Shown: piece by piece, positions 1 to 58,163 of the stretch
Layout of the letters: each line of letters opens with the position of its first letter
Numbering within the stretch: position 1 is the stretch's first letter
IMG/VR virus record: IMGVR_UViG_2576861193_000002
DNA: 64,000 nt
DNA from: a virus
Lineage: Duplodnaviria; Heunggongvirae; Uroviricota; Caudoviricetes
Strand: one strand, 5' to 3'
Notes under the pieces: generated by a model
The model's input: the letters and a program-made list of their open reading frames with translations, nothing else
Database searches by the model: none
Told to the model about the DNA's origin: nothing
Position numbers and translations under genes: made by a program

Positions 1-69
1 AGCACCTCAAAAACACCATCATACACTAAATCAGTAAGTTGGCAGCATCACCATCGCGCCTGAGGCACA

Positions 70-20007: not shown

Positions 20008-20427
20008 ATGGACAAATATGAATTTAGACGACAGCAACTCATCAAAATTCGTGATGAGAAATGCGATGGTAAAGCGGTTAACGTGGCCAGAAAGATCGGG
20101 CGCGAGCCTTCTTATGTATCAAGAATGTTGTACCCAGAGGGGAAAAAGGGAAAAAAACGGATCGCTGATGATATGGTGGAGATTATCGAAGAGTCCTTTG
20201 GGTTACCCCGGGGATGGATGGATGGTATCGTTTCATCATCAACGAACACAGCCTCCAGTTATGAAACAAGGGTTCTAACGCCACGACAACGTATTTTTTT
20301 AGATCTCTTAGACGAACTGCCAGAAAGTGAAGCGGATAACTTATTAAAAACTCTTGAAGAGAAAAAACAGTATTACAATATGATCTACGAAGAAATCCGT
20401 AAAAAGAAAGCACAAAACGCATCATAG
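20008..20427 (+). CDS. racR: prophage repressor RacR-like
   Basis: 139 aa; N-terminal HTH (…AVNVARKIGREPSYVSRML…); divergent from cro-like ydaS. Confidence 0.7.
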   Translation: MDKYEFRRQQLIKIRDEKCDGKAVNVARKIGREPSYVSRMLYPEGKKGKKRIADDMVEIIEESFGLPRGWMDGIVSSSTNTASSYETRVLTPRQRIFLDLLDELPESEADNLLKTLEEKKQYYNMIYEEIRKKKAQNAS

Positions 20428-32108: not shown

Positions 32109-32482
32109 TTATTTTGTAGTCTAGCCTTCTGGCCCTGTTACGCAACATCTCATCACCCCATTACCCTGAAATGATTAATAAAATTCTGTCTAAATTGAAT
32201 ACAAAAAGCAAAATGCTTTTCCGTATACAAACCGTGTGAAGTGTTAAATAGCGTCTATCATTATCAGAATTATCTGATCATATGACGTGGCTTTTTTGCG
32301 ATCGGATAGCAACAAAAATTGATAAAAATAACGGGATCTCAATGATTACGCACAACTTCAATACCCTGGACTTACTCACCAGTCCTGTCTGGAATGGTTA
32401 GCACTATTAATAATAATTTATAAAACAGTATGTTATAGTGCTTTTGTTTTTGGTTTTGGATATTTGGTCACTATTTGGTACA

Positions 32483-32541: not shown

Positions 32542-34731
32542 TTATTCTTCGCTTCCGGTCAACTGCCGGACAAGCTCTTCAAGTTTTGTGATCCGTTCAT
32601 CCATGACGGCAATGTTAGCTCGTAGGCTGGCATTCTCCCCTTCCAGTTCGGTGACGCGGTTATCTGTTTCGTGTGCCACCTGGACAAGTAAGCCAGTCAC
32701 TGCGGCATAATCAACATTGAGGTAACGCGATTCTTCGCGTAGCTCGTTGCCATCAATGGTCGGCCCCTGCAACTCTTTGCCGTAATGAGTAAACGATCCA
32801 ACAGCCTCCGGTAGCGCCTCCATAACCTCCTGAGCGATAACACCAGCGTAAGGCAGGCCGTTTTCCTTAAGGGTATAAGTGTACCCGTTCATTTTGCGGA
32901 TGGCTTCAGTTGCGTTATTTATAACCTGAATGTTGTCTTTAAGGTCGCGATCAGATGATTGATTTACTGATAAGCAAGTAACGCTTCCAGACGCTTTAAT
33001 ATTTGTCACATCAAGTCTGTCGTTTGCAAAATTATATGAGATTGCTGTGCTTGTGCTTCCGGCATCATCATAATTGCTTTTATGAATAAACCAGTTTCCG
33101 CCATTAGCAATAAGGGTATAAGCTGGCGTGTTAGCCGGGCGATCTGTTTCATCAAATCTTATTGCAGGGTTAGCACTATTTATTTGCAAAGGTTTTTCAA
33201 GCGTTGATTTCAGTATCGCACTATCTACAATTAAATTACCTTCTGAGTTAAGGTTTAGATATTTTGAATCACCAGTTGAACCATTGTATACAAACCTTAT
33301 TGTTAATTGACTTTTCCCTTCTGATAAAGTCTGAGCATACATATAAGCTGCAAGACGCAAATCGTCGTTAGTTGACAATAGTCTTGTGCGGAGGATTCCA
33401 CTAGATGTGCCTACGTCTGTCGAATCACTATATTTATCAAGAAATAGACTATTAAGCTGAGGGCTATTATCCCTGCCCAACCCTAGATTAGTTCTGGCAT
33501 TATCAAGGCTTGTCGCACCAGTGCCGCCTTGAGCAACGGCTAACGGTATCCATTTTTTTTGCGTATCGCTGTAACAACCCCACGATGAGGCAGATAAACC
33601 AAGTCGCATAGAGTTGTCAGCGTTATATATCCATGTTTCGCTGCCCCACTCACTAACCCTTTCGGTTGATACCATTTTTTTCCATGCGCTCCAACCTTGC
33701 CCGCCATACGACCTTCTGTAACTAATTTTCATATCGTTAAACAAATAATAGGTCTGCATGCACCCTTCTGAATCACCTGCGCCAGTTTTTTGCACTAACA
33801 ATGAACCAGCAATCTGTATGGGGTAATTTAATTCAGGTTTTGCGTTTGCTGATAATACTTGATGATAAAATCCTGCTGCGCTTCCTTTTAAGTCATCAAG
33901 ATTCTGTCTATCGCTAAGGGTAGTTTTTGCATCATGCATAACCATTAGGTTTTTTCTGGCTTCTGCTGCGTTTCCAGCACCAGTACCGCCATACATAACG
34001 CCTAACTTAAGTGCCCCGGCGGTTGAATAAGCACCCCACCCAGCGTTATTAACGAAGATGTAATTTTTATTTTCTCCGTCCCGCAACTGAGTTTCTTTTG
34101 AGGAACCACCATTTTGAAGCAAGCGATTTACTTCATCCTTGCGTGCGTGGCGTGTCCAGTTCTGGCCTGATGCTGCGACCCATGTATAAGTATAAAGTGA
34201 TCGCGTAGACCAACCGACAAAGACGCCAGCATATGAAGGCGACGCATCCCGCTGACAGATAAATCCACTCAAAAATGATTCGCCAGCCGCTACGGAAGGA
34301 AAGCCCTTAGTCGTTTCCTTTATGCGCAAAAAGCCAACGTAAGAAGACGGATCGCCTGATATATCGACGCAATCTCGCGGCTCTGGACCCAAGCCAATAT
34401 TGCTGCCATCTATTGCGCTTGATATTTCATCTTCCTTTTCCTGATAAAAACGAAGTGTTTCAGCTACATCCTGGGCAAGCCCATCAACTGAGATCGAATC
34501 AGAAAGCAGAATACTAAATTTTGTTCCGGCAGGGATGGCGGGGTTAGCCGCTGGCGTTACTGACAGTTCAGTACCGCTTTTAATTTCTGTGATGGTAAAG
34601 ATCTGCACCGGATTGCCGATTGCAATGAGCGTGCAACCTACACGAATGAGAGAAAGCGGCGCGGAAAAGTTTGTTCCCGTGCCTGTAACAGTATTGCCAT
34701 TAATGGCAATTGTTCCAGTTGTGTAAATCAT
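32542..34731 (-). CDS. tail fibre/tailspike with C-terminal intramolecular chaperone (peptidase S74-like) domain
   Basis: 729 aa; C-terminus …DLKDNIQVINNATEAIRKMNGYTYT… with coiled-coil tail, typical of autoproteolytic fibre chaperone domains. Confidence 0.75.
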   Translation of the reverse strand: MIYTTGTIAINGNTVTGTGTNFSAPLSLIRVGCTLIAIGNPVQIFTITEIKSGTELSVTPAANPAIPAGTKFSILLSDSISVDGLAQDVAETLRFYQEKEDEISSAIDGSNIGLGPEPRDCVDISGDPSSYVGFLRIKETTKGFPSVAAGESFLSGFICQRDASPSYAGVFVGWSTRSLYTYTWVAASGQNWTRHARKDEVNRLLQNGGSSKETQLRDGENKNYIFVNNAGWGAYSTAGALKLGVMYGGTGAGNAAEARKNLMVMHDAKTTLSDRQNLDDLKGSAAGFYHQVLSANAKPELNYPIQIAGSLLVQKTGAGDSEGCMQTYYLFNDMKISYRRSYGGQGWSAWKKMVSTERVSEWGSETWIYNADNSMRLGLSASSWGCYSDTQKKWIPLAVAQGGTGATSLDNARTNLGLGRDNSPQLNSLFLDKYSDSTDVGTSSGILRTRLLSTNDDLRLAAYMYAQTLSEGKSQLTIRFVYNGSTGDSKYLNLNSEGNLIVDSAILKSTLEKPLQINSANPAIRFDETDRPANTPAYTLIANGGNWFIHKSNYDDAGSTSTAISYNFANDRLDVTNIKASGSVTCLSVNQSSDRDLKDNIQVINNATEAIRKMNGYTYTLKENGLPYAGVIAQEVMEALPEAVGSFTHYGKELQGPTIDGNELREESRYLNVDYAAVTGLLVQVAHETDNRVTELEGENASLRANIAVMDERITKLEELVRQLTGSEE

Positions 34732-34865
34732 CGCAATGACTCCATTTTGTTAATTAACGGAATAATTCTACCATTTTGTGATCTGTGTTGCATTTTATGC
34801 TTATACAAAATGTATATTATAATAAACAAAGCAACAAATACACACAATCTGAGTGGGGTGTACTA

Positions 34866-35084
34866 ATGAAAATGGTAACAATTATCGCTGTTGCGGCTAT
34901 TCTGGTTGGTTGCGCTGACACTAATCGACACAACGGTCATTGTGCAACTAGCGCATACGGTGTCTGCTATGAAAGATGGGTTGATGGTGTAATGGTTCCT
35001 GCCGGGGAAATTTGTCGGGTGTATGATGGCACTGATGGCCATAGTGGCAAGACTAGAGATTGCGGAAGTAAGGAGTGGTATTAA
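34866..35084 (+). CDS. Cys-rich small lipoprotein (candidate receptor-masking / superinfection exclusion)
   Basis: 72 aa; signal peptide + lipobox LVGC; 6 Cys; counter-oriented between tail fibre and J. Confidence 0.55.
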   Translation: MKMVTIIAVAAILVGCADTNRHNGHCATSAYGVCYERWVDGVMVPAGEICRVYDGTDGHSGKTRDCGSKEWY

Positions 35085-36019
35085 TGGGTGCAGGTATATA
35101 TATTGGGCTGAATGACGGACGCCCTGCAATGGAAATAACAAGCGGGTTGCGTGCGTTCTCACACGCTGGAGATTTCAATATTCAAAAGGCCGGGTTTTTG
35201 CAAAGTTTTTCCATAAAGGATTTAACTGGCGGAGATAAGTTTTTAATCCCAAAGGCAGGCGCTTACGCGTTTGAGCTTGACCGGGGCGTTGAAACATATT
35301 TTATATCAGGCTTTAGTGCTTCTGGTGGCACGGCAAGGATTTCAATTAGTGGTGAGAACGCATATTCTGATAGGATCACTAATTTTAGCGGTAGCGTGTT
35401 TGAGATAGCAAAGGCGTCTACTGGTGAGGGTATATTAGTTGCAGATAGCACAGGTTTTGCATCGATAACGACTAACGATACATTGATGTCATGTTTATGG
35501 GTTGGAAGTGTTAGCTTTACTGGGTCTTACACTATGCCAGTTGCTGGCGTTCCTTTCGGTAACTGGAGCAATAGCGGAGTTTCAGTTGAGTTTGACGGAA
35601 ACAATAAATTGATCTGTACAAACACAAACACCTCTTCCACTGGTGACACATATGGATCTGTGGCGATGAATTTGGCTATTTTTAGCAAATCACCGCCATC
35701 ACCTGGCGACGGAATAACCATCATCAATAAAAATAATCAATGCGTGTTTTCAACAAAACAAAGGCCATTGGTTGTTAAGGGATTTATAACGTTATCTAAT
35801 AGTTATCAGAATATTGGTGACGCATTCTTCCCAATATTGAGATGCGGCTTTAATACCAGAGCCATTAAAGCATACAAGGAGCTAAGATACAAAGGCATTA
35901 TGATGTACAATGGGCAGGTGAAAAGCGGAACAGGATCAAGGATTGTCAGGTATGAAATAGGTAACAGGCCGGATTTCTGTATAGGTATGAAGCTACCTTA
36001 TTTGCCAGCAATTTATTAA
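35084..36019 (+). CDS. hypothetical Ser/Thr/Gly-rich protein
   Basis: ~311 aa; ATG overlaps lipoprotein stop, SD aaggag; no recognisable family. Confidence 0.5.
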   Translation: MGAGIYIGLNDGRPAMEITSGLRAFSHAGDFNIQKAGFLQSFSIKDLTGGDKFLIPKAGAYAFELDRGVETYFISGFSASGGTARISISGENAYSDRITNFSGSVFEIAKASTGEGILVADSTGFASITTNDTLMSCLWVGSVSFTGSYTMPVAGVPFGNWSNSGVSVEFDGNNKLICTNTNTSSTGDTYGSVAMNLAIFSKSPPSPGDGITIINKNNQCVFSTKQRPLVVKGFITLSNSYQNIGDAFFPILRCGFNTRAIKAYKELRYKGIMMYNGQVKSGTGSRIVRYEIGNRPDFCIGMKLPYLPAIY

Positions 36020-36059: not shown

Positions 36060-39000
36060 TTACCAAACACCAATAATAATTTTACCACCACTAGGAAGAT
36101 TTACCGTAATGCCGTTATTGTTAATAATTACCCGTCCGTCACTATTGCGTACATCGAAATTTTGATTGCCTTTAACAATGACGTTACCCCTTACGGTGAC
36201 TTCGTTGAATTGCGCCCATCCATCTTTGTTAATCATCCAACCTTTTGAGTCTTGAACAAATACGGTTGACTGGATTTGCTGCGCTATTTTTGCAGTACCG
36301 ATAGATCCGTCTTTAATAAACGCTTCTTTAACATACATTGCATCATTGGTGGTATAGAAAGGTGATGTGTATGTGCCGTTTGCTGCGGTCATCAACACGA
36401 AGCGGTCAACGAGGAAAATACACTGCGATTGAACGTTAGTGCCGCTACCAGTCAGCCCAAGAGACATACCTGTTGCATACTTCATGCCGTTGTTGTCGGT
36501 TGCCAGCTTGATAGAGTACGTCGCATCAACATTACCTTTGAAGTCGGTTAACGCTTTCGACGTCGTCTGTATCGCTGTTGTGTTCCCGTTAACGGTCACT
36601 GTTAGCTGATCGATTTTGCTTGATAATGCCTCGTCAGCCGTCGCCATTGCCTGCGACCATTCTGTAATATTTGAGTTTACAGAATCGAAAGACGCTGAGA
36701 TCTGGCCAAATTTTTCCGCGCTTGATGCTTCATGCGTAGAAAGTGCCGTTGACACCTCTGATACCTTCGAATTAATCGTACTGGTAAGCGATGAGTTAAG
36801 ACTACTGATTGCGTCAGTACGGGCCTTCGTTTCGTCTGCAATAGCCTTATCAATACGGGTTACGTTACTTGTCACCTTACTATCAAGCGTGGAAATTGAT
36901 GCGTTCACTCCGCTGATAGCCTGGGCGCGGGCGCTTGATTCGTCGGCAATAGCCTGATCCAGCCTGCTAACTTCAGATTCAGTGTTGTTTTCAAGCGTGC
37001 TAATACTTGCATTCACTCCACTGATAGCTTCAGTTCTTGCGCTTGTCTCATCTGCAATGGCTTTATCAAGACGGCTTATTCTTGAATCCGTTTTCTTGTC
37101 TAGCGCTGACACTGAGGCATTTACTCCGCTGATAGCCTCGCTGCGTGCGCTGGTTTCGTCTGCAATTGCCCTATCAAGGCGGTTGACGCTTGCTTCCGTC
37201 TTCCTATCAAGATCGGTGATCGATGCGTTTACGGAGCTAATGGCTTCCGCTGTGGCTTTTTTCTCCTCTGCTATAACATTGTCAATACGGTCAATTTGCG
37301 CGTTGGTTTCTTTGCGGCCTTTCTTGTATTGGGCCGTGAGAGTAACCCGCGTGTTGGTTTGAGCAATAGAGTTGTTGATAAGTGCGATTGAGGCGTTTTG
37401 CAGACTTGCTTTAGTCTGATTTATTTCGTCGCTGTTTTTGTCAACGTTATTTTCAACAGTGCCAAGCTCCGCGCTGATGCCCGATATTGCCTGTGCACGG
37501 GCGCTTGATTCATCTGCAATTGCCTGATCAAGACGTTTAACGCTGGCGTTTGTGCTATTTTCAAGCGTTGTTAAATCAGCTTTAACCTCTGTTATTGCGG
37601 CGCTTCTTGCCTGCGTTTCATCTGATATTGCTTTATCAAGACGGGAAACGCTCGCGTCAGTTTTGCTTTCAAGATTGCTTATTGAGGCGTTAACGTCGCT
37701 AATGGCCTGGGTGCGGGCACTGGTTTCATCTGCAACCGCTTGATCCAGTCTGCTTACTTCTGATTCTGTATTGTTTTCAAGTGTGCTAATACTTGCATTC
37801 ACGCTACTGATAGCGTCTGTGCGTGCTTTTGTTTCGTCTGCTATCGCTTTATCAATGCGGTTAATGTTGCTTGTAACTTTGCCGTCAAGCGTGGAAATTG
37901 AGGTATTCACGCCGCTGATGGCTTCAGTTCTTGCACTGGTTTCATCTGCAATTGCCTGATCCAAGCGTTTTACGCTGGCGTCAGTTTTCTTGTCTAGCGT
38001 TGAAATACTTGCATTTACGTCGCTGATGGCTTGAGTCCGCGCGCTAGTCTCGTCAGCGATTGCTTGATCAAGGCGGTTAACGCTTGCGTCAGTTTTCTTA
38101 TCAAGATTGCTTATTGAAGCGTTTACACCGTTAATAGCTTCAGCGCGGGCGCTGGCCTCGTCAGCTACTGCGCGCTGCACGTTAGAAATCTGACCTTTAA
38201 GGTTGGAGTCCATCGTATTCATTTCTGCTGTGATGGTTTCCAGTGATTCCGCTGTCGCTTTTTTCTCTTCAGCGATAACGTTGTCAATGCGGTCGATTTC
38301 CGCTTTAGTCTCTGTCCTGCCTTTCTTGTACTGAGCGGTAAGAGTTACGCGCGTGTTTGTCTGTGCAAGTGAGTTATTAATAAGAGCAAGTGACGCGTTT
38401 TGCAGGCTTGCTTTTGCTTGCGCCAGTTCGCTGCCAACTTTTTCGCTGGACACTTCTAATGAGTCAATTCTTGCCTCATGCTGTCCAATATCATCGGCGT
38501 TTTCCTCAACCTTTTTATAAAGATCTTCCGTTTCTTTTTTCAGTGTGTCCGTATCAGCTTTTATGGCCCCTGTTTCTGTGATTAGGCCGTCCGTATCAAT
38601 CCTCAAATCGTCAGTGATGTTTGTCAGGTTGTCCGTGTCAACCCTCAAATCGTCAGTGATGTTTGTCAGGTTATCAGTTGCAGTTTTGAGGTTGTCGGTA
38701 GCAGTTTTAAGGTCATTTGTAGCGCTTTCGATAAGATCAGCGCGGTCGCCAAGATCTTTAATGTCGCTAATCATCCCCTTAAACTGTTCTGAATTAATTA
38801 CGTCTTTTGTGACGTAGTCGCTAATTTCATCGAAGTTTTCAGTTGGTTTGCCTGATGCCTCAACGAAATCTGACACGCCAAAAGCGTTACGTGTACGAAT
38901 ATAAACGTAATAGGTGTGCCCCGTGTTCATGCCGCCAAAAGTCCACTGATAGCCGCGCCCGGTAAACTGCGCTGATGTGGTTACTTTTGATGGATCTGTG

Positions 39001-41243
39001 ATCTGGTTTTCACCTGCGAAGTAAAATTCGTATGCTGTATCAGTGGTCAGGGTTGTTTTGCTAATCGGATACACTGTTGCCTGGAAAACACCAGGAACCC
39101 AATTAACGCCGACCGGGGCCGCTGGTGCACCAATAACCAGGTCCACAATACTTTCCGCACCCTTCATGCCAGTGTCATTACGCCCGCGAATACCAAGCGT
39201 GTAGCTGCCAGTATCAAGGCCATAAAACTCATAGCGGTAATTCGTTGTTTCATAAGTTGCCACCACGCGGCCTTCGGCGTTATATACGCGTATTTCAAAG
39301 GTCAGGCGATGCGTTGTCGTCTGTGTTTCCCATGTAGCGCGACATTGAACAGTTTCAGAACCAACATTTAACACCTTCAGGTTTTCAATGTTCGGCACGC
39401 GGAAGTGATTAAGCGTGTCGTTGTTTACCTCAAAGATTGCGCCTTCATCGACTACAGCCTGTTTATGTGGGTCATGCTGTGCTGCCTCGATGGTGTACAC
39501 GCTGTTGTTTTCAGTTTCTGCTACGCTGATGATTCGGCACAGGACGGGTTTTGCTGCGTCAGTTGATACAGCAAAAACAGTTCCGTTACGAATCCACGCG
39601 GGGGCGGCTGCAAGGGTGATATTGTTTCCGTTAACTCCGGTGATCTGGTGTTTTTTAAACTTGCCATCACTATCAAGTAAACTAATGGTATCGCCTGCGG
39701 CGATGTATTCCGAATCAACCTTATCTACCGTTATCACCTTGCCATTATTCGCCACGATACGACCGCCAAAACGAGCGCCTGCGCGGTTATTGTCGAGTAT
39801 CTCGATAATATCCCCAGGGGTGAAGTGAATTGCGTCGCGGGCCATTTTAAACGTGAATTTTGATGGTTCGCGTTTTGCTGTTTCTATCAGCCACTTGCCA
39901 GCGCGGTATGCCTGCCCGCGTGAAGTGCAACCGAAAGCCTCTAGCGTGGTTTCGTTATAACCATCGCGGGCGATCAATTCATCATCTGCCACGTATTCTT
40001 TTGATTGCTCCCAACCGTTTTCCGGGTCAGTCCATGACACGATAACTGCGTTGTAAGATTCTGCACGGGCAATACTTGAACGAGTAAACGCGCCATCAAC
40101 AACGTTAGCATTCGTGATGGTAGCAATTGGATCTTGCGGTGCATCAATCATCACCGTAAGGCGCTGCCCATCCCATAACGCGATACCACGGAACATGCCT
40201 GCGATATTGTCCAGTAAGTCGCGGGCGCTCATTTGCTCAGTTATGTAAGCATTAAGCGTCATGCGAGGTTCAAAGCCGCCGTAACCGTCGTTTACCAACT
40301 GGTCGCAGTATTGAGAAAGCGTATATAATGCGCCGTCGTCAACATCAATGTAACCAGCATGACGTGCAAGCCCGAAACGTTCATTTTTAACCAGATACCG
40401 GAATAGCCACGCAGGGTTATTGGTGTACGCTTTTTTAAATCCACCTAGCCATAAACCTGAATACGTGCGCGTTTCAGGGTTATAGTTGTCAGGCACATCA
40501 ACAATCAGTCCGCGCAGATGATAGGTGCGGGTAGGTGTATCAGTATACTGGTCATGGTCAATTACAGCACCAGCTACAGCGGTATGAGGGTAAGACAGGT
40601 TATCGTCGATTATTTCGCTGTAGCTACTCCACCGCGTATCATTACGAAGAAGATCGCTTTTGCTGTCTGCTGTTACGCGACGAACGCGAATATCAAACGG
40701 CTTTTCATCCGGCGCTTTGATAATGTGAGCTTCCAGATATTCACCGCTTTGTTTACCGGGACCAATGTGTATACCTTTAACCGGCGACCACGTAGAAGAT
40801 GATGACGGTTTAACATCAACCACCAACATAACGGATGTATTATATTGATTGCCCTCATCATCTGACTGAACAAGAGCATCAACGCCAAGATTTAACCTTA
40901 CGCGGGTAACGTTTGGATCTGAAACAGTCCTTATTATTGGCGTGTCGTGAGTTACCTTTGCGTTGACAATAACGGTTGATTCGATGGCATTAAAACCATT
41001 AATCGGCGATTGGTCAGCCGTGCCGTTGCGCCAGGCTATACTAATCCCAGGAATTGATGTGTTTCCGTTTGCGTCAGTGATAGGCGTGTCATTAAGCATT
41101 ACGTTGTTTAATGGCGCATTCTGGTTAACTACTCCAAAAATTGGTCCTTCACTTAGAATATCTAAAACCCGATAAAATTGTTTATGAAACAAATTATCAT
41201 TAAGCAAAGTTGGTGTTTTTGCTTTACCGCCGCCACTAGACAT
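36060..41243 (-). CDS. J-like host specificity / central tail fibre protein with long coiled-coil repeat insert
   Basis: 1727 aa; follows L-K-I; middle third is tandem ~35-aa repeats (…DETSARTQAISDVNASISTLDKKTDASVKRLDQAIA…). Confidence 0.85.
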   Translation of the reverse strand: MSSGGGKAKTPTLLNDNLFHKQFYRVLDILSEGPIFGVVNQNAPLNNVMLNDTPITDANGNTSIPGISIAWRNGTADQSPINGFNAIESTVIVNAKVTHDTPIIRTVSDPNVTRVRLNLGVDALVQSDDEGNQYNTSVMLVVDVKPSSSSTWSPVKGIHIGPGKQSGEYLEAHIIKAPDEKPFDIRVRRVTADSKSDLLRNDTRWSSYSEIIDDNLSYPHTAVAGAVIDHDQYTDTPTRTYHLRGLIVDVPDNYNPETRTYSGLWLGGFKKAYTNNPAWLFRYLVKNERFGLARHAGYIDVDDGALYTLSQYCDQLVNDGYGGFEPRMTLNAYITEQMSARDLLDNIAGMFRGIALWDGQRLTVMIDAPQDPIATITNANVVDGAFTRSSIARAESYNAVIVSWTDPENGWEQSKEYVADDELIARDGYNETTLEAFGCTSRGQAYRAGKWLIETAKREPSKFTFKMARDAIHFTPGDIIEILDNNRAGARFGGRIVANNGKVITVDKVDSEYIAAGDTISLLDSDGKFKKHQITGVNGNNITLAAAPAWIRNGTVFAVSTDAAKPVLCRIISVAETENNSVYTIEAAQHDPHKQAVVDEGAIFEVNNDTLNHFRVPNIENLKVLNVGSETVQCRATWETQTTTHRLTFEIRVYNAEGRVVATYETTNYRYEFYGLDTGSYTLGIRGRNDTGMKGAESIVDLVIGAPAAPVGVNWVPGVFQATVYPISKTTLTTDTAYEFYFAGENQITDPSKVTTSAQFTGRGYQWTFGGMNTGHTYYVYIRTRNAFGVSDFVEASGKPTENFDEISDYVTKDVINSEQFKGMISDIKDLGDRADLIESATNDLKTATDNLKTATDNLTNITDDLRVDTDNLTNITDDLRIDTDGLITETGAIKADTDTLKKETEDLYKKVEENADDIGQHEARIDSLEVSSEKVGSELAQAKASLQNASLALINNSLAQTNTRVTLTAQYKKGRTETKAEIDRIDNVIAEEKKATAESLETITAEMNTMDSNLKGQISNVQRAVADEASARAEAINGVNASISNLDKKTDASVNRLDQAIADETSARTQAISDVNASISTLDKKTDASVKRLDQAIADETSARTEAISGVNTSISTLDGKVTSNINRIDKAIADETKARTDAISSVNASISTLENNTESEVSRLDQAVADETSARTQAISDVNASISNLESKTDASVSRLDKAISDETQARSAAITEVKADLTTLENSTNASVKRLDQAIADESSARAQAISGISAELGTVENNVDKNSDEINQTKASLQNASIALINNSIAQTNTRVTLTAQYKKGRKETNAQIDRIDNVIAEEKKATAEAISSVNASITDLDRKTEASVNRLDRAIADETSARSEAISGVNASVSALDKKTDSRISRLDKAIADETSARTEAISGVNASISTLENNTESEVSRLDQAIADESSARAQAISGVNASISTLDSKVTSNVTRIDKAIADETKARTDAISSLNSSLTSTINSKVSEVSTALSTHEASSAEKFGQISASFDSVNSNITEWSQAMATADEALSSKIDQLTVTVNGNTTAIQTTSKALTDFKGNVDATYSIKLATDNNGMKYATGMSLGLTGSGTNVQSQCIFLVDRFVLMTAANGTYTSPFYTTNDAMYVKEAFIKDGSIGTAKIAQQIQSTVFVQDSKGWMINKDGWAQFNEVTVRGNVIVKGNQNFDVRNSDGRVIINNNGITVNLPSGGKIIIGVW

Positions 41244-41802
41244 ATAGACCCCCTGTTTCGTGTAATTTCGTGTATCCTGCGCCAGCTTTATTTAGCTCTT
41301 CAATCATGAATGACCGCCACGCGACGGCGGCATTAATAGCCATTTCAAGTCCACCGCACGCTATAACGCTAAATGATTTACTAACTCTTTTGTCGTTATC
41401 AGCGGTGATACGTGCTCTAATAGATCTCCCTTCTGCGTGCCAACATATCCCAAATGGCAATCCGCTCTCCCTTGTCGCGCGACCTATGGTCATATTTCTG
41501 GCGTTACCTTTTTTATCTGTTACGCGTATGTTATTGAATTTATTATTAAGCCCATTACCATCAATGTGATCGATGATCTCACTGCGTTTTAATTTTCTGC
41601 CACTGCATAATTCGTAAACAATCCGGTGAGCATAATAGCGACGGCCCTTCCATGTGATTTTCCAGTACTTATTGCCGCTTTTTGCCGCTACTATTTTTCC
41701 TGCCGCATCGCCAGTCCTCGCCGTTCTGCTGTTAGCGGTGACTTTCCACCTTAAACATGAAGGAGAATCTTCATCATAAACAAACAATTCAGACCAGTTC
41801 AC
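41236..41802 (-). CDS. HNH homing endonuclease (HNH_3-type)
   Basis: 188 aa; motif IDHIDGNGLNNKFNNIR; inserted between tail genes I and J. Confidence 0.75.
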   Translation of the reverse strand: MNWSELFVYDEDSPSCLRWKVTANSRTARTGDAAGKIVAAKSGNKYWKITWKGRRYYAHRIVYELCSGRKLKRSEIIDHIDGNGLNNKFNNIRVTDKKGNARNMTIGRATRESGLPFGICWHAEGRSIRARITADNDKRVSKSFSVIACGGLEMAINAAVAWRSFMIEELNKAGAGYTKLHETGGLYV

Positions 41803-43021: not shown

Positions 43022-43726
43022 TTAACCCACCTTGCTCGATCCAGGAAAACATGAAATTGGTAACGGATTCGGGCGCGGAAAACGCAAACGGCAACCGCTT
43101 AGGCGGTGGCTGCATTTGTCCATCCTTGGATCGTTGGTTGATTCGTCTTTATCGGTAGCTACAGGGCCGCCACTATATCCGCAACCGTCGCCGCGATACT
43201 GCCACTGGCAAACGTCAGCGAGAATTGTGCGCCCAGGGATAACAGCTTTATCAGCATCAATTGGCGTTGACAGTTCATATTGCACCTGGTCGGCTGTTTC
43301 TTCGCTCATCGCCTCAACGACGTAAAAAGATACAGCCTCAATAGATGGATCTGCATCTGGGTTGCCGTTGGGGAAGTTGATAGCGTCCAGGTATTTTACT
43401 TCCACCTGGCGGCGCGTAACCTTCATTCCTCGAAGGTCGTTAAAATCGTTATTCATCCCAGTGATTAGCCCGCCAATGTTGGCTACTACCATTTGGGGGC
43501 GTGAGTAAACGCCTTCGTTTTTCATTTCGAAGCCAGTCGCCTCGATTGGGTAGCTGTTGTAGGCCACTCCCTTCCAGATAACCGGGCCGTAATAGCCATT
43601 CGCGCCGGAATGGAAGCGGATAATCTCGCCACCCAGGGGCGTGAGGTCTAATTCAAACAAGTCAATTACCGCACCGACTCCGGCATCCACGGAATCAATA
43701 ATCATTTCTGTAGGTATGCTGCGCAT
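43022..43726 (-). CDS. minor tail protein L-like
   Basis: 234 aa; synteny M-L-K-I-J; C-terminal Cys cluster. Confidence 0.75.
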   Translation of the reverse strand: MRSIPTEMIIDSVDAGVGAVIDLFELDLTPLGGEIIRFHSGANGYYGPVIWKGVAYNSYPIEATGFEMKNEGVYSRPQMVVANIGGLITGMNNDFNDLRGMKVTRRQVEVKYLDAINFPNGNPDADPSIEAVSFYVVEAMSEETADQVQYELSTPIDADKAVIPGRTILADVCQWQYRGDGCGYSGGPVATDKDESTNDPRMDKCSHRLSGCRLRFPRPNPLPISCFPGSSKVG

Positions 43727-43743
43727 TTTATCACCTTGTAATT

Positions 43744-43807
43744 TGTGATCGACGTCACGCTAAATCATACCAAAACGGTTGATAGCGCTTTTTACAATAT
43801 GTATATT
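43744..43807 (+). promoter_or_regulatory. sigma70-type promoter with upstream CRP-like site for the moron cassette
   Basis: TGTGA-tcgacg-TCACg (43744-43759) centred ~62 bp upstream of predicted TSS; -35 TTGATA (43779-84), 17-bp spacer, -10 TATATT (43802-07). Confidence 0.5.
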
Positions 43808-43853
43808 GTACTCAAAAGGAAGCATGGTTAACAAAATGGCGCGGAGGTGTGAG

Positions 43854-44009
43854 ATGGTTGATAAGGTGTGGAGGTTGAAGGTATTCCTGGCGGATGGCAG
43901 GGAAATGACTGTAGCTCTGTATAAGGATGAAGGCGAGGCACTTACTGACGCGCTTTTACTCGCTGAAGACGAACGCGTTTTGGGGTACAGGATCGAACCC
44001 GTCAAATGA
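43854..44009 (+). CDS. hypothetical small protein (moron cassette gene 1)
   Basis: SD ggagg + ATG at 43854 (51 aa); the longer track ORF starts at 43779 inside the promoter. Confidence 0.45.
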   Translation: MVDKVWRLKVFLADGREMTVALYKDEGEALTDALLLAEDERVLGYRIEPVK

Positions 44010-44021
44010 GGGTTTAACAAA

Positions 44022-44372
44022 ATGCAAAAATACAGCTTAGATGTGTGGACTGATAAATGTGAATGGGAATGCATGGGCCTATTTGACACATATGCTGCGG
44101 CGCGTGATGAAGGTCGCGAATTACTTCTCTGTTGGTCTAACGCTCGTGATTTTGATATTACTCCGGTCCAAGTACCGGATAAGGTGGAAGAGATGAACCC
44201 TAAAGATATTGATGTTAGCTTCAATGTTAACTTTGCTGACTCTATGGATCAGTCTTGCCCTGGTGAAATACACGCAAAAGGTTTCCCCGCTGACGATCCA
44301 GAAGCAAAACGCGAATACGAAAAAGCGGCAAAAGATTTCTGTATCGACAATTTGTCTGCGTTCGATAAATAA
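44022..44372 (+). CDS. hypothetical acidic protein (moron cassette gene 2)
   Basis: 116 aa, rich in D/E, 5 Cys; no recognised family. Confidence 0.5.
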   Translation: MQKYSLDVWTDKCEWECMGLFDTYAAARDEGRELLLCWSNARDFDITPVQVPDKVEEMNPKDIDVSFNVNFADSMDQSCPGEIHAKGFPADDPEAKREYEKAAKDFCIDNLSAFDK

Positions 44373-44381
44373 GGCGGCAAC

Positions 44382-44630
44382 ATGGGGCGGCGCAATCACG
44401 GTGATTATGTGTACACGTTGAAACAGGCCGCCCGCCTCATCGGTTATCATGAGCACGAATTTATTGATTTGCTGATCGAGCGCGGGATTTTGTATCAGGT
44501 TTGTTTAACGCTGTACCCGAAAGCTAAGTACCTACAAGAAAAGTTATTCATCATTATGACGGATGAAAACCAGGTCAATCACTCATTCGTCACTGATAAA
44601 GGCGTTAATTATCTGCGTGATAACTTATAG
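44382..44630 (+). CDS. hypothetical protein with HTH-like segment (moron cassette gene 3)
   Basis: 82 aa; …YTLKQAARLIGYHEHEFIDLLIERGIL…. Confidence 0.5.
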   Translation: MGRRNHGDYVYTLKQAARLIGYHEHEFIDLLIERGILYQVCLTLYPKAKYLQEKLFIIMTDENQVNHSFVTDKGVNYLRDNL

Positions 44631-45006: not shown

Positions 45007-45360
45007 CTAGCTGACAACTTGCTCAAATGTTGCGTTTAGCGTGTATACAGGCCCGTCCTTTGTCATACTCCAGCTACGGCAAACAAAAAGCCTTTGCACG
45101 CCATCCATAGACGGCGACCAGTAAAAAGCCTCGACAGCGCCGCGCGCCCTCAAGAATGCTTCTGCCTGGATCGCTACGTTCCCACCATCACCGCATCCTG
45201 CACTACTGCCTTTAAAGACCAGGGTGTAGCTATCAAGCAACGTGTTAATCCCTTTCGCCTGGCGCTGTTCATAACCATCACCAAGTTTAATGACAGATAC
45301 GTTTGGTTCCCTGGTCACGCTGTAGCTTCTTTGCGGCGTCCATCTGAAAACTTCTGGCAT
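45007..45360 (-). CDS. minor tail protein M-like
   Basis: 117 aa; between tape measure and L. Confidence 0.65.
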   Translation of the reverse strand: MPEVFRWTPQRSYSVTREPNVSVIKLGDGYEQRQAKGINTLLDSYTLVFKGSSAGCGDGGNVAIQAEAFLRARGAVEAFYWSPSMDGVQRLFVCRSWSMTKDGPVYTLNATFEQVVS

Positions 45361-45529
45361 GATTCCCCCTATAAGTTACATATTGCATACATCTTTACGC
45401 GCTTCTACGCGAAAAATGAGAAATTCATCACAAGAATTATAACCAGTTTACAAAATGGCTTCACATAAGGCGTGACAAGATGTATATAGTAAGCAAGAAG
45501 AAAAAGCAGTACCGACAAAGGGGGGCAAT

Positions 45530-45685
45530 ATGGAACGCTATGTGGTTGTGATGCTGAACAAAGCATTCGAACAGGTGGAAGTTGCGATTGTGAAGGGCTT
45601 TGATGATGCATTCAAATACGGTCAATTTATGATGAATGCGAAGGAAAATGAGTACCGTGATTTCTTCCTAAAAGTAGTCAACTGA
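45530..45685 (+). CDS. hypothetical 51-aa protein (first gene of T5orf172 cassette)
   Basis: Strong SD aaagggggg then ATG; MERYVVVMLNKAFEQVEVAIVKGFDDAFKYGQFMMNAKENEYRDFFLKVVN. Confidence 0.45.
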   Translation: MERYVVVMLNKAFEQVEVAIVKGFDDAFKYGQFMMNAKENEYRDFFLKVVN

Positions 45686-45705
45686 TTGATTGCGTGGGGT
45701 GAGTT

Positions 45706-45960
45706 ATGAAATTGGTAATGATTGGCAAAAACCTGAAAGCTCAGAAAAACGCGCCGGAACATGTAGTTAAAAAAGCAAAGGAACTTTTGAACGCGTTTTT
45801 AAACAAGAATGCGTCACCCAAAAAATTGAAAGACGGTTACGGCTACGCCTTCCGCGCCAATTTAGACTGGCGAGTCTATAGCCAGGATCTGAAGGAGTGG
45901 GTGATTGTTGAACACCATAAATTCAATGAATTGTCTGGCGTTCGCGGTTGCCATAAGTAA
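45706..45960 (+). CDS. hypothetical 84-aa basic protein (weak RelE/ParE-like C-terminal pattern)
   Basis: SD ggggtgag; …GYGYAFRANLDWRVYSQDLKEWVIVEHHKF… is reminiscent of RelE-fold toxins but unconfirmed. Confidence 0.45.
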   Translation: MKLVMIGKNLKAQKNAPEHVVKKAKELLNAFLNKNASPKKLKDGYGYAFRANLDWRVYSQDLKEWVIVEHHKFNELSGVRGCHK

Positions 45961-46047
45961 GGCGGGATATGGATGACGATAAATTCACCCGGCGGGAGAT
46001 CTGGAATATTTAGTTGGTGATTTTCGTGAGGGGATATATCTCGCGGA

Positions 46048-47007
46048 ATGGTCGGATATAAAATGGGTGTGATTATGGCGCGAAAAATGACACATGAAGA
46101 ACATATTGCAGATATAGCAAATGTCAATCCTCGTGTTGATATTTTAGGAGAAATTACAGGCTGCAATGATAAGGTGTCGTGTCGTTGCAGAGTTTGTAAC
46201 CACAAATGGCGTACTACGCCGCACAGCCTTAAGGCTGGCAGGGGCTGCCCCGAATGTAAAAGAACAAAGATAGCACGAATAAAACAACTATCACATAACG
46301 ATCATGTTGCTGCAATTGCTAATGTTAATCCATTTGTTGAAGTGCTAGAAAAAATTGTTAATGTAAAGAAAAAGATCGCATGTCGTTGTAATAATTGCAA
46401 AAACATATGGATGACTACGCCAAATGATCTCAAAAACGGTCACGGCTGTCCGAAATGCTCTGGCGTAGCGAAGCTGTCACATGAAGAGCAGATTGCAGCT
46501 ATTGCGAAAGTTAACCAAAATGTTGATGTAATAGGCAATATTGTTAATGACAAAACAAAAGTATCATGCCGCTGCAAGGCTTGCGGTCATGTGTGGTCGG
46601 CTACGCCTAACGACCTTAAAAATGGGCGCGGCTGCCCGAAATGCGCGAAACGAGGGTTTTTATCCCACGAACACGGAAAACTTTACATCATGGTTGATGA
46701 TCTTGAAGTGCCAACAATGATGAAAATCGGCGTGAGCGTTAAGGAGAACGAGCGAAGAAATAAAGTATTAAAAAGCGCACATAAAGCAGGTGTCAGAATC
46801 CCTGATTTGTATGTCGTGAAAACGTGGGTGGGGCCAACTGAAAAAGTACAAGAATTAGAAAGCACGATGCATAAGGCTTTTAGCAATTATAAAATTAACT
46901 TCCCTGTAAAATTTGATGGCAGTAATGAATTTTTCTACTACAGGCCGGAAGTATTCAGCATGGTAGAAAGTACATACAGTGATATTGTAAATAAAAATGC
47001 GGCATGA
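46048..47007 (+). CDS. T5orf172 / GIY-YIG-like domain protein with three tandem zinc-ribbon repeats
   Basis: 319 aa; three ~60-aa repeats each with CRCxxC…GCPxC; C-terminal LYIMVDD…MMKIGVS GIY-YIG-like motif. Confidence 0.6.
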   Translation: MVGYKMGVIMARKMTHEEHIADIANVNPRVDILGEITGCNDKVSCRCRVCNHKWRTTPHSLKAGRGCPECKRTKIARIKQLSHNDHVAAIANVNPFVEVLEKIVNVKKKIACRCNNCKNIWMTTPNDLKNGHGCPKCSGVAKLSHEEQIAAIAKVNQNVDVIGNIVNDKTKVSCRCKACGHVWSATPNDLKNGRGCPKCAKRGFLSHEHGKLYIMVDDLEVPTMMKIGVSVKENERRNKVLKSAHKAGVRIPDLYVVKTWVGPTEKVQELESTMHKAFSNYKINFPVKFDGSNEFFYYRPEVFSMVESTYSDIVNKNAA

Positions 47008-49255: not shown

Positions 49256-49381
49256 GATTGCTACTCCAGTTTTGTGATCTGTGTCTCTATTTTATACAAA
49301 ATGGCTTTACTTCAGCGACTCCATTTTGTATAAGGAAGCCATAGGGAACAGTTAAGAAATCAAACAAAAACGAGGTGAATT

Positions 49382-49561
49382 ATGAAAAGTTTAATCAACA
49401 AAATTCTGGTGGTTGCCATTGCTCTTGCAATCTGTGTGCACATGACCGTGCTTTACTGGCAAGCTCCAAATGCAATGCTCATGATGCAGATCGCAGGTCA
49501 AAAGGCGTTCATCCCTGGCTGGGGTGCGCTGGATGCTTTAATCCGCTGGTTTATGGCTTAA
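49382..49561 (+). CDS. small membrane protein (59 aa)
   Basis: SD gaggtg + ATG; MKSLINKILVVAIALAICVH… with one TM helix. Confidence 0.5.
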   Translation: MKSLINKILVVAIALAICVHMTVLYWQAPNAMLMMQIAGQKAFIPGWGALDALIRWFMA

Positions 49562-49572
49562 AGGTGCTAATT

Positions 49573-49947
49573 ATGAAAAACGTATTAAAAGCCGCGCTGA
49601 TTGGTGTTATTGCTCTGTCGCTCGCTGGGTGTGCAAGATCAACTGATTTTGTTAGGTTGGCTGATAATAAGTTGCAGGCTGGAATGACTTGCGAGCAGGT
49701 TACTAAAATCATGGGTGAGCCTCAAAGGATTGAGTATGACGGTAAGTACAGCTATCACGTATGGTGGTCGGTAACAAGTACGGTAGGTTTTACATACATG
49801 GATGTTGAAGAGTTATCCCCTTCAAGGGTTATAGCGAAGTTTGATAATTGTATTCTGAAAGAATGGAAAGATCGCAGCAAGGCGAAGACTGTATATGGCA
49901 CAATTACTCACAGCTCACCAGGCGCTGCCGTCAAAGATTTCAATTAA
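49573..49947 (+). CDS. lipoprotein (124 aa)
   Basis: Signal peptide + lipobox LAGC; translationally coupled to preceding small ORF. Confidence 0.6.
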   Translation: MKNVLKAALIGVIALSLAGCARSTDFVRLADNKLQAGMTCEQVTKIMGEPQRIEYDGKYSYHVWWSVTSTVGFTYMDVEELSPSRVIAKFDNCILKEWKDRSKAKTVYGTITHSSPGAAVKDFN

Positions 49948-49976
49948 AGAAAGGCCCGGCTAATTCCGGGCTTTTT
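49948..49976. terminator. bidirectional intrinsic terminator
   Basis: gcccgg-ctaatt-ccgggc followed by T5, preceded by A-rich run. Confidence 0.55.
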
Positions 49977-58085: not shown

Positions 58086-58163
58086 AATGTTTACTCCTGA
58101 ATACATGTTTACGCGTTGCTACGCGAAAAATAGAAAAATTCGTGATGGGTTGTGAGGCAGATT

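What the first reader, a model, noticed from the sequence alone, without database searches (positions are those of the whole stretch)
34738..34812. Shared CCATTTTGT / TTTTGTGATCTGTGT motif set at three moron junctions
The 15-mer TTTTGTGATCTGTGT occurs at 34774-34788 and 49270-49284, each followed by ATTTTAT and ACAAAATG(G). GACTCCATTTTGT occurs at 34738-34750 and 49317-49329, and ACAAAATGGCTT recurs at 45450-45461. These lie in the intergenic regions where plus-strand cassettes meet minus-strand tail genes, so they may be a common operator or the footprint of a shared insertion mechanism. TGTGATC is also a CRP-like half-site, as in the cassette at 43744.
Basis: seen in the sequence. Interest (0 to 1): 0.5.

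Follow-up and report, generated by a model that had tools for sequence, protein, structure and literature searches.

The report
Repeated promoter blocks at prophage cassettes
The repeated words are real: they are pieces of a conserved regulatory block in front of each of four accessory-gene cassettes that lie backwards inside the tail operon of an mEp021-type E. coli prophage, most likely host-RNA-polymerase promoters with CRP-type activator sites, which is useful to know but not surprising.

Summary
The window from about 32.4 to 64 kb is the late half of an mEp021-type (mEpimmI) prophage. Its minus-strand late operon is interrupted by four plus-strand cargo cassettes, not three. In about 44 related phages the same words sit at the same junctions, while a more distant phage group has neither the cassettes at positions B and C nor the motif. 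The pieces fit one layout in the cassette direction: a TGTGA-N6-TCACA (CRP-type) site, TATACAAAATGG, a -35, 17 bp ending in TG, and a TATAWW -10, followed by a 35-41 nt leader. The -35 and -10 hexamers and the CRP-like half-sites are invariant while spacers vary. Cargo differs downstream of the conserved block. So a shared regulatory element is supported, and an insertion footprint is not. In complete mEp021 the core CATTTTGT also marks about 14 intergenic sites, including the presumptive early promoter PR, so it is phage-wide rather than junction-specific. What binds the core is not established. This is a new example of a known kind, of modest interest.

The parts
34732..34865 (.). Junction D: divergent region between the 729-aa tail gene (32542-34731, minus) and the Lpp exclusion lipoprotein cassette (34866-36019, plus)
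   Evidence: ORFs; Pfam Phage_lipoprotein and DUF6453; 98% identical to mEp021 gp82/gp81 intergenic; nearly invariant over 6 phages up to 34812, after which homology breaks
34777..34792 (+). CRP-type dyad TGTGATCTGTGTTGCA.
   Evidence: 2 mismatches to TGTGA-N6-TCACA; in relatives TGTGATCT..GTTACA has 1 mismatch in 17 of 28 loci, with halves fixed and centre variable; centre is at -40.5 from a start inferred from TATATT
34801..34812 (-). Box TTATACAAAATG (minus strand reads CATTTTGTATAA). It ends in TG directly 5' of the predicted cassette -10
   Evidence: the core is invariant in relatives while following bases vary
34813..34818 (+). Predicted -10 TATATT of the cassette D promoter (inferred start about 34825, 41-nt leader to ATG at 34866)
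   Evidence: inference, no transcript data
34738..34750 (-). GACTCCATTTTGT: on the minus strand ACAAAATGGAGTC, where GGAG is the ribosome-binding site of the tail gene. This box copy is degenerate (CCATTATGT) in relatives
43727..43853 (.). Junction C: divergent region between the tail protein L homolog (43022-43726, minus) and cassette C (43854-44630, plus; small proteins plus a KilAC/ANT-domain protein)
43744..43759 (+). CRP-type dyad TGTGATCGACGTCACG
   Evidence: 1 mismatch; both halves invariant and the central 3-4 nt variable in 36 distinct relatives; centre at -62.5 of the inferred start
43769..43807 (+). Cassette C promoter: degenerate box ACCAAAACGG, -35 TTGATA (43779-43784), 17-bp spacer, -10 TATATT (43802-43807)
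   Evidence: 10/12 in the sigma-70 scan; hexamers invariant and spacer partly variable
43827..43839 (-). Box CCATTTTGTTAAC. Its TTGTTA is the -35 of the only good late-direction sigma-70 candidate (TTGTTA-18-TACAAT, 43834..43805)
   Evidence: the L042 deletion ends at CAT|TTTG and keeps this part
45361..45529 (.). Junction B: divergent region between the tail protein M-like gene (45007-45360, minus) and cassette B (45530-47007, plus; 51-aa protein, ParE-like domain protein, zinc-finger/T5orf172 protein)
45417..45432 (+). CRP-type dyad TGAGAAATTCATCACA
   Evidence: 1 mismatch; TCACA invariant, the other half TGAGA or TAAGA, centre variable; centre at -70.5
45450..45488 (+). Cassette B promoter: box ACAAAATGG (45450-45458), -35 TTCACA (45460-45465), 17-bp spacer ending ATG, -10 TATATA (45483-45488)
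   Evidence: both hexamers invariant and mid-spacer variable in 27 distinct relatives; not called by the scan tool because the -10 lacks the final T
45384..45417 (-). Hairpin-containing 34-nt element in the leader of the M-like gene, repeated at 58098-58131 (between terL and portal)
   Evidence: 88% identity; fold -11.8 kcal/mol, z -1.9
49256..49381 (.). Junction A: divergent region between the tape measure gene (47048-49255, minus) and cassette A (49382-49947, plus; small membrane protein plus a lipoprotein-like protein)
49270..49288 (+). Only the TGTGATC half is conserved
   Evidence: GATCACA invariant in 32 distinct relatives, the partner half has 2-4 mismatches; centre at -60.5
49292..49333 (.). 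Perfect 13-bp inverted repeat TTATACAAAATGG-N16-CCATTTTGTATAA. It encloses the cassette A -35 TTTACT (49306-49311), and the cassette A -10 TATAAG (49329-49334) overlaps the right arm and runs one base past it
   Evidence: arms invariant and loop variable; folds as a hairpin of -14.5 kcal/mol, z -3.0

Best explanation
The repeated words are paralogous copies of one compact regulatory block that drives each of the four plus-strand accessory cassettes (A at 49.4 kb, B at 45.5 kb, C at 43.9 kb, D at 34.9 kb) embedded antisense in the late tail operon of an mEp021-type prophage.

Read in the cassette direction, the block has these parts in order:
- the A/T-rich box TATACAAAATGG, lying directly against the -35 at about -45 to -37, where the alpha C-terminal domain of RNA polymerase sits at class I CRP promoters;
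- a -35 hexamer;
- a 17-bp spacer ending in CAWWWTG;
- a TATAWW -10;
- a 35-41 nt leader.

In junction D the CRP-type site is about 22 bp closer to the -10, giving a class II geometry. Host RNA polymerase with sigma-70 would therefore transcribe the cargo in the lysogen, modulated by cAMP-CRP. In relatives with another lipoprotein cargo, an FNR box would do the modulating.

The block is resident: cargo is exchanged downstream of it. Because each block lies back-to-back with the leader of the next late gene, the box also appears in the late direction, where it may contribute weak restart promoters.

Shown: the repeats, their synteny, their clade restriction, and the conservation pattern. Inferred: promoter activity, transcription start points, CRP binding, and the role of the box.
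For: (1) Context. The window from about 32.4 to 64 kb is an mEp021-type prophage. The four cassettes carry typical lysogen or defence cargo, including the experimentally shown Lpp exclusion protein (PMC11893012).

(2) The core 8-mer occurs 5-11 times per 20 kb at syntenic positions in all of about 44 relatives, and 0-2 times in a more distant phage group that lacks cassettes B and C.

(3) Footprints over 23-36 distinct sequences show the classic promoter and operator signature. The -35 and -10 hexamers of cassettes B and C are invariant with variable mid-spacers. The CRP-like half-sites at B, C and D are invariant with variable centres.

(4) All four blocks and mEp021 PR align to one layout, with an invariant G-TATA at the -10. 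PR is the best sigma-70 match in the immunity region (TTGACT-17-TATATT, 10/12), with the box at -45 to -37.

(5) One CRP-consensus hit (2 mismatches or fewer) lies in each junction. About 0.25 hits would be expected in the 556 bp of junction DNA. The inferred centres are at -40.5, -60.5, -62.5 and -70.5, compared with the canonical -41.5, -61.5 and -71.5 (PMC2859248).

(6) The predicted leaders are uniform in length: 41, 35, 40 and 41 nt.

(7) At least three different cargoes at slot A and two at slot D share the block and diverge 0-20 nt beyond it.

(8) 24 relatives carry a perfect FNR box at slot D, against 0.8 expected. This shows that these slots are wired to CRP/FNR-family regulators.
Against: - There are no transcript or binding data. 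Start points were inferred after the fact from the -10 hexamers.
- The -10 hexamers of cassettes A (TATAAG) and B (TATATA) lack the usually conserved final T and are not called by the scan tool.
- TG lies directly 5' of the -10, one base off the canonical extended -10.
- CRP-consensus matches are not enriched window-wide (26 against 30 expected).
- Junction A keeps only one CRP half-site.
- In most relatives the C site is 1 bp further from the -35 than in this window.
- The box is used at different positions in different places: next to the -35, as the end of the spacer, as a -35 hexamer, or just before a ribosome-binding site. It is also more strictly conserved than an alpha-CTD contact would require, so a separate, unidentified binding factor is not excluded.
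Confidence: 0.55

Rival explanations
1. The core (C)CATTTTGT(A) is the operator of a dedicated DNA-binding protein, either phage-encoded (for example one of the HTH proteins of the early region, which lies outside this window) or a host factor other than CRP. Pairs of sites 26-33 bp apart, inverted at A and direct or inverted at D, would be bound cooperatively to set the balance between cassette and late-gene transcription. Single sites at PR, in the repressor leader, and around the nutR2 terminator would tie early control into the same circuit. This is compatible with the promoter-block reading and could be an additional layer on it.
For: - mEp021 has 17 copies against 2.3 expected, 14 of them intergenic, in both the early and late regions.
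- The core is invariant while immediate flanks vary, in both orientations and at variable distance from the predicted promoters.
- The motif is restricted to the mEpimmI clade, which shares one immunity type (PMC11893012).
- There are regular 26-33 bp spacings and a perfect 13-bp inverted pair at junction A.
Against: - No candidate protein was identified.
- OL and OR carry one copy each, not an operator array.
- Orientation relative to transcription is mixed, unlike stoperators.
- Pairs of copies share 13-17 nt beyond the core in a patchwork. That points to paralogy or gene conversion rather than selection on contact bases alone.
- Some copies have decayed in some lineages: 34742 in relatives, and the second B copy in this window.
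Confidence: 0.25
2. The conserved words are recombination linkers: short shared sequences at module boundaries at which homologous or relaxed homologous recombination (the phages encode an Erf-type recombinase) swaps cargo between phages. Alternatively they are scars of a common insertion mechanism.
For: - Homology between phages with different cargo breaks at or within 20 nt of the box.
- Cargo length at slots B and C varies by 0.7-0.9 kb.
- The L042 deletion ends inside the box.
- Extended identity between copies at different loci is patchy.
Against: - The box is only on the promoter side of each cassette, and there are no flanking direct repeats.
- The L042 joint has 2-nt microhomology and no box at its other end.
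- Copies also lie where no variable cargo is evident, for example at PR and in the repressor leader.
- 8-13 bp of identity is short for homologous exchange.
- Invariance of the core with variable flanks across about 44 genomes indicates selection on the sequence itself.
Confidence: 0.1
3. The inverted copies act in RNA: as hairpins in the late or cassette transcripts (processing, stabilisation or attenuation), or through short leader peptides that start at the ATG inside ACAAAATGG.
For: - The junction A repeat folds into a 13-bp stem of -14.5 kcal/mol, z -3.0, on either strand.
- A 5-codon ORF (M-x-S-L-K/R-stop) in the A loop is kept in most relatives with some synonymous changes, and a similar one overlaps the start of the 729-aa tail gene.
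Against: - D and B folds are unremarkable (z -1.1 to -1.9).
- The arms never vary, so there is no covariation.
- Copies occur on both strands relative to transcription.
- The mini-ORF has no ribosome-binding site and is broken or extended in several relatives.
- No Rfam family matches at any junction.
Confidence: 0.05

Closest known systems
Morons of lambdoid phages (promoter-gene-terminator units inserted between late genes; Juhala/Hendrix concept, from my own knowledge)
   Same: Accessory genes with their own promoter and terminator sit between tail genes and are expressed from the prophage. The cargo includes an exclusion lipoprotein and defence-like proteins.
   Different: Here the four units are all antisense to the late operon, sit at fixed positions across a whole phage family, and share one paralogous promoter block. 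That block stays in place while the cargo downstream changes.
[quoted passage not shown]
   Same: There is a dyad TGTGA-N6-TCACA with conserved halves. Inferred centres lie within 1 bp of -41.5, -61.5 and -71.5. An A-tract lies between the site and the -35, where alpha-CTD binds at class I promoters.
   Different: Binding and cAMP dependence are untested. Junction A has only one good half-site. The -10 hexamers of A and B lack the final T. Start points are inferred, not measured.
UP-element proximal subsite (AAAAAARNR at -46 to -38; Estrem et al. 1999, from my own knowledge)
   Same: ACAAAATGG matches 7 of 9 positions and lies at -45 to -37 at mEp021 PR and at cassettes A and B, with a degenerate copy at C.
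   Different: The C at position 2 and the TGG are strictly conserved. The same word also occurs in the opposite orientation and at other positions relative to promoters. An alpha-CTD contact does not explain either fact.
Stoperators of mycobacteriophage L5 and cluster A phages (many asymmetric repressor sites in short intergenic regions; from my own knowledge)
   Same: A short asymmetric word is repeated about 14 times in intergenic regions across the whole genome of a temperate phage, including next to the early promoter.
   Different: Stoperators share one orientation relative to transcription and match the repressor's operator at the early promoter. Here the orientation is mixed and there is no operator array at OL or OR.
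PeSL mobile regulatory cassettes of T4-type phages (early promoter plus stem-loop flanking variable genes; Arbiol et al. 2010, from my own knowledge)
   Same: A repeated promoter-containing sequence marks the borders of variable accessory genes, and the copies are paralogous.
   Different: PeSLs flank cargo on both sides and are thought to mediate its excision and exchange. Here the repeat is on one side only, and the other border is a bidirectional terminator.

Membership tests
CRP-dependent promoter (class I / class II) | 16-bp dyad TGTGA-N6-TCACA within the 22-bp consensus AAATGTGATCTAGATCACATTT | tested here: met
   C has 1 mismatch, B has 1, D has 2 (1 in most relatives), and A has 2 in this window (2-4 in relatives, with only one half conserved). 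The consensus is from PMC2859248.
CRP-dependent promoter (class I / class II) | Half-sites conserved and central 6 bp free to vary among orthologous sites | tested here: met
   Met at B, C and D in 23-36 distinct relatives. At A only TGTGATC is fixed.
CRP-dependent promoter (class I / class II) | Site centred at -41.5 (class II), or at -61.5, -71.5 and further upstream in helical steps (class I), from the transcript start | tested here: inconclusive
   Centres are at -40.5 (D), -60.5 (A), -62.5 (C) and -70.5 (B), counted from starts placed 7 nt after the predicted -10. The starts are inferred, not measured, and most relatives have C 1 bp further away.
CRP-dependent promoter (class I / class II) | CRP binds the site and activity depends on cAMP-CRP | not testable with these tools
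   Needs EMSA or footprinting, and reporters in crp/cya mutants.
Sigma-70 promoter | -35 and -10 hexamers resembling TTGACA and TATAAT, 16-18 bp apart, with A at position 2 and T at position 6 of the -10 | tested here: inconclusive
   C has TTGATA-17-TATATT, 10/12. D has TATATT with the CRP-type site over the -35. A (TTTACT-17-TATAAG) and B (TTCACA-17-TATATA) score 9/12 but lack the final T. Conservation of hexamers against spacers supports B and C.
Extended -10 promoter | TG at -15/-14, one base upstream of the -10 hexamer (TGnTATAAT) | tested here: not met
   TG is directly adjacent to TATAWW in all blocks, and the scan tool reports no TG for the C promoter.
UP element, proximal subsite | A-tract AAAAAARNR at -46 to -38, directly upstream of the -35 | tested here: inconclusive
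   ACAAAATGG matches 7/9 at -45 to -37 at PR, A and B. The consensus is recalled from memory, and the same word occurs in other positions and orientations.
Stoperator-type repressor sites | All copies in one orientation relative to the direction of transcription | tested here: not met
   Orientation is mixed at the 14 intergenic copies of mEp021.
Nut site (boxA/boxB) of the mEp021 Gp17 antitermination system | boxA-like sequence followed by a boxB hairpin with an A-rich loop | tested here: not met
   boxA in mEp021 is GCTCTTTAAAAA, a different sequence. Box copies merely lie near nutL, nutR1 and nutR2 (PMC11893012).
Site-specific cassette insertion (integron-like, or a transposon with target duplication) | Repeats at both ends of the cargo and an associated recombinase | tested here: not met
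   The box is on the promoter side only, and the other end is a terminator. The L042 joint shows 2-nt microhomology. There is no recombinase in the cassettes.
Known structured RNA family (Rfam) | Match to a covariance model at the junctions | tested here: not met
   The only hit at E<=1 is a sub-threshold rimP-leader match at 49917-49993, on the cassette A terminator.

The most novel reading that the evidence does not exclude
The core CCATTTTGT(A) is the recognition site of a dedicated factor of the mEpimmI phage family, so far unidentified. Through about 14 sites it would couple the early promoter, the repressor leader, the third nut region and all four antisense cargo slots into one switch. 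Bound in pairs at the junctions, it would decide whether polymerase leaves towards the cargo (in the lysogen) or towards the next late segment (in lytic growth). Each late segment would then be a separately restartable unit. The four positions would be fixed expression slots whose resident promoter is kept while cargo is exchanged.
Probability: 0.2. Interest if true: 0.6.

Novelty: new member of a known kind. Interest (0 to 1): 0.35.

Why it matters
mEpimmI phages are reported to be as common in human gut E. coli as lambdoid phages, and their transcriptional control outside the N-like antitermination system is undescribed (PMC11893012).

If the reading is right, it gives four things:
- It locates the promoters of four accessory-gene slots, which hold exclusion and defence-type cargo.
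- It predicts that this cargo responds to carbon source (CRP) and, in many relatives, to oxygen (FNR).
- It gives a simple sequence signature, TTATACAAAATGG next to a -35, for finding such slots and their cargo in new genomes.
- It flags a family-wide 9-mer whose binding partner is unknown.

None of this overturns current ideas about morons. It refines them for one phage family.

Tried and rejected
- **Uniform sigma-70 -10 reading of the box.** Scores were uneven, 9/12 at a few copies and poor at many, so I rejected it as the sole explanation.
- **Box as -35.** This works only for the late-direction candidate at junction C.
- **Nut/boxA identity.** Rejected, because boxA is a different sequence.
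- **Repressor operator array.** OL and OR share only one box each plus an A/T tract.
- **Analogous repeat in the distant phage group.** Nothing found.
- **Intermediate relatives in other species.** The genome-collection scan returned only the distant group, so co-evolution of motif and factor could not be tested.
- **Literature search for the motif strings.** It returned only unrelated primer sequences.
- **The 2023 Gp17/nut paper.** It is not held in the library.
- **Resemblances recalled from memory.** IHF, Fis, DnaA box, LexA box, OmpR, ArcA, the P2 Ogr dyad and the sigma-S -10 were compared by eye. None explains the conserved positions CATTTTGT, so I did not pursue them.
- **Rfam.** No family matches at the junctions.
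- **RNA hairpin as a common function.** Only junction A folds well.

Full report
**1. The observation**

The 15-mer TTTTGTGATCTGTGT occurs only at 34774 and 49270, even when 2 mismatches are allowed; 0.16 matches are expected and 2 of 100 shuffles reach two. The shared core CCATTTTGT occurs 10 times against 0.89 expected, and no shuffle reaches that. Its 8-mer, ACAAAATG/CATTTTGT, is the second most frequent 8-mer of the window.

Four corrections apply:
- There are four junctions, not three.
- Three of the ten 9-mer hits are coincidences with coding sequence or start codons.
- The copy at 34742 is a private variant that overlaps a ribosome-binding site.
- The exact 15-mer identity is lineage-specific, whereas TGTGATCTRTGT is shared clade-wide.

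**2. Context**

Positions 1 to about 28 kb are the Rac prophage side of the E. coli chromosome. These are followed by ttcA, dbpA, zntB and the 5' end of dgcM (ydaM), which is cut at about 32.40 kb. From there to the end of the window lies the late half of a prophage of the mEp021 / mEpimmI group, a family described in 2025 (PMC11893012).

Its late operon is on the minus strand. Four plus-strand cassettes interrupt it, at the same places as mEp021 gp63, gp65-68, gp71-74 and gp80-81:
- A, 49382-49947: a small membrane protein and a lipoprotein-like protein.
- B, 45530-47007: a 51-aa protein, a ParE-like domain protein, and a zinc-finger/T5orf172 protein.
- C, 43854-44630: small proteins and a KilAC/ANT-domain protein.
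- D, 34866-36019: the Lpp exclusion lipoprotein and a DUF6453 membrane protein.

Lpp exclusion was shown experimentally from plasmids. Each cassette ends at a bidirectional terminator.

**3. Comparative evidence**

Anchoring on the tail protein L homolog retrieved about 44 close relatives and about 36 members of a more distant group with about 70% L identity.
- Every close relative has 5-11 copies of CATTTTGT per 20 kb, at syntenic positions.
- The distant group, and ten loci from other genera, have 0-2 copies, which is the chance level.
- The distant group has a contiguous TMP-M-L-K-I-J operon without cassettes B and C.

Footprints over 23-36 distinct sequences show the following.
- **Junction A:** the two arms TTATACAAAATG and CATTTTGTATA(A)AATAG, and GATCACA, are invariant, while the loop and neighbouring bases vary.
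- **Junctions B and C:** the predicted cassette -35 and -10 hexamers (TTCACA/TATATA and TTGATA/TATATT) are invariant with variable mid-spacers.
- **Junctions B, C and D:** the two halves of a TGTGA-N6-TCACA-type dyad are fixed while its centre varies.

**4. Anatomy**

In the cassette direction, the four blocks and the presumptive early promoter PR of mEp021 align to one layout: a CRP-type dyad, TATACAAAATGG, a -35, ten bases, CAWWWTG, and TATAWW.
- PR (TTGACT-17-TATATT) is the best sigma-70 match in the mEp021 immunity region and has the box at -45 to -37.
- With starts placed 7 nt after the -10, the CRP-type centres fall at -60.5 (A), -70.5 (B), -62.5 (C) and -40.5 (D).
- The leaders are 41, 35, 40 and 41 nt long.
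- The canonical CRP positions are -61.5 and further upstream for class I, with alpha-CTD sandwiched between CRP and sigma region 4, and -41.5 for class II (PMC2859248).
- Junction D differs from A by the absence of about 22 bp between the dyad and the -10, which is the class I to class II distance.

One CRP-consensus hit lies in each junction, where about 0.25 would be expected in 556 bp. There is no window-wide enrichment, however: 26 hits against 30 expected.

In 24 relatives whose slot D holds another lipoprotein type, a perfect FNR box (TTGAT-N4-ATCAA) sits in the same region, against 0.8 expected over all loci.

**5. The block is resident and the cargo is not**
- Phages with different cargo at slot D are almost identical up to ACAAAATGTAT and unrelated beyond it.
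- At slot A at least three cargo types share the block to about 15-20 nt past the box.
- Cargo length at B and C varies by 0.7-0.9 kb.
- One relative (L042) has lost the gp70 homolog, the terminator and cassette C. The joint is GGGGGGTTGTTAT|TTTGTTAAC: the right end is inside the box, there is 2-nt microhomology, and the junction C block is retained.

This fits retention of a functional block and ordinary illegitimate recombination. It does not fit a site-specific insertion mechanism.

**6. The core is phage-wide**

In complete mEp021 the 8-mer occurs 17 times against 2.3 expected, and 14 copies are intergenic. Eight of those are in the early region:
- between gp03 and gp04;
- before the helicase ribosome-binding site;
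- in the repressor leader;
- against the -35 of PR;
- after gp17;
- between gp25 and gp26;
- on both sides of the hairpin upstream of nutR2 (two copies).

The published boxA is a different sequence.

Copies fall into subfamilies that share 13-17 nt around the core: ATCCATTTTGTATACTT at PR and before nutR2, GTGAAGCCATTTTGTA at A and B, and ATACATTTTGTATAA at A and D. This indicates paralogy.

The box is used at different positions relative to predicted promoters and in both orientations. A pure RNA-polymerase contact does not explain this, so a dedicated factor remains possible.

**7. The late direction**

Each late segment ends in a terminator and begins after a junction, so restart promoters are conceivable.
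- Only junction C has a good late-direction candidate: TTGTTA-18-TACAAT, with conserved hexamers and a variable spacer.
- B has a conserved perfect TATAAT with a poor -35.
- A and D have only TATAAA/TAAAAT or TATAAG.

Whether these candidates fire is unknown. The family is thought to use a Q-like late antiterminator.

**8. Rivals**
- A dedicated operator is compatible with the data and is given 0.25.
- A recombination-linker or insertion-scar role is given 0.1. It is disfavoured by the one-sided placement, the microhomology joint, and copies at places without variable cargo.
- An RNA role is given 0.05. It is weak because only junction A folds well (z -3.0, against -1.1 to -1.9 elsewhere), the arms never vary, the 5-codon mini-ORF is broken in several relatives, and Rfam finds nothing.

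**9. Verdict**

The finding is real and is best read as paralogous, clade-conserved promoter blocks with CRP-type sites that drive four antisense cargo slots. The insertion-footprint idea is not.

Promoter activity, start points, CRP dependence and the role of the 9-mer core are inferences. This is a new example of moron-type regulation with one unexplained feature, the family-wide core. It is of modest interest unless a dedicated factor is found.

Noticed in passing
Relatives L010-L050, junction D (about +6600 to +7700 from the L start); absent from the window: A perfect FNR-consensus box TTGAT-N4-ATCAA occurs in 24 relatives that carry the other (lpp010-type) lipoprotein cargo, against 0.8 expected. 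It is flanked by two ACAAAATG boxes and lies about 25 nt downstream of the CRP-type dyad.
   Followed up: partly
window 45384-45417 and 58098-58131: A 34-nt hairpin-containing element (TTTACGCG..CGCGAAAAAT) is 88% identical between the leader of the M-like tail gene and the terL-portal intergenic region. Both copies abut a start codon followed by TAT.
   Followed up: partly
window 49304-49287 (minus strand) and 34745-34728 (minus strand): There are five-codon mini-ORFs starting at the ATG inside the box: MESLK-stop in the junction A loop, and MESLR-stop overlapping the start of the 729-aa tail gene. The first is kept in most relatives, with some synonymous changes, but is broken or extended in several.
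   Followed up: partly
L042, -120 to -100 from the L start (equivalent to window about 45001 to 43837): A natural 1.16-kb deletion removes the gp70 homolog, the terminator and cassette C. The joint has 2-nt microhomology and its right end lies inside the box, leaving the junction C promoter/CRP block now facing the M-like gene.
   Followed up: yes
mEp021 (L089) 20079-20151: Two box copies bracket the imperfect 15-bp hairpin annotated as TERM_4. The downstream copy forms TTGTTC-16-TATACT just upstream of the nutR2 boxA, a possible extra promoter feeding the third nut site. The hairpin shares about 20 nt with junction D.
   Followed up: partly
window 34748-34758: TGTTAATTAAC is invariant in all relatives. 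It matches the ArcA-box consensus WGTTAATTAW as I recall it, but no second repeat is present and this was not tested.
   Followed up: no
window 32344-32400: The 5' end of host dgcM (ydaM) is truncated at about 32398, marking the prophage end. This agrees with the ydaM integration site reported for type I integrases of this phage family.
   Followed up: partly
window 36775-38275 and 46088-46542: There are coding tandem repeats: a 108-nt period (9 or more copies) in the J-type tail tip gene, and three repeats of about 200 nt in the cassette B protein, corresponding to treble-clef zinc-finger modules ahead of a T5orf172 domain.
   Followed up: no
window 18723-18762: There are four closely spaced GTGACA/CGTGAC repeats next to a CCATTTTGT copy inside a 358-aa minus-strand ORF of the Rac region. 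They are unrelated to the prophage junctions.
   Followed up: no
window 41236-41802: An HNH endonuclease gene sits inside the late operon between the tail assembly protein I and J homologs, as in mEp021 gp78.
   Followed up: no
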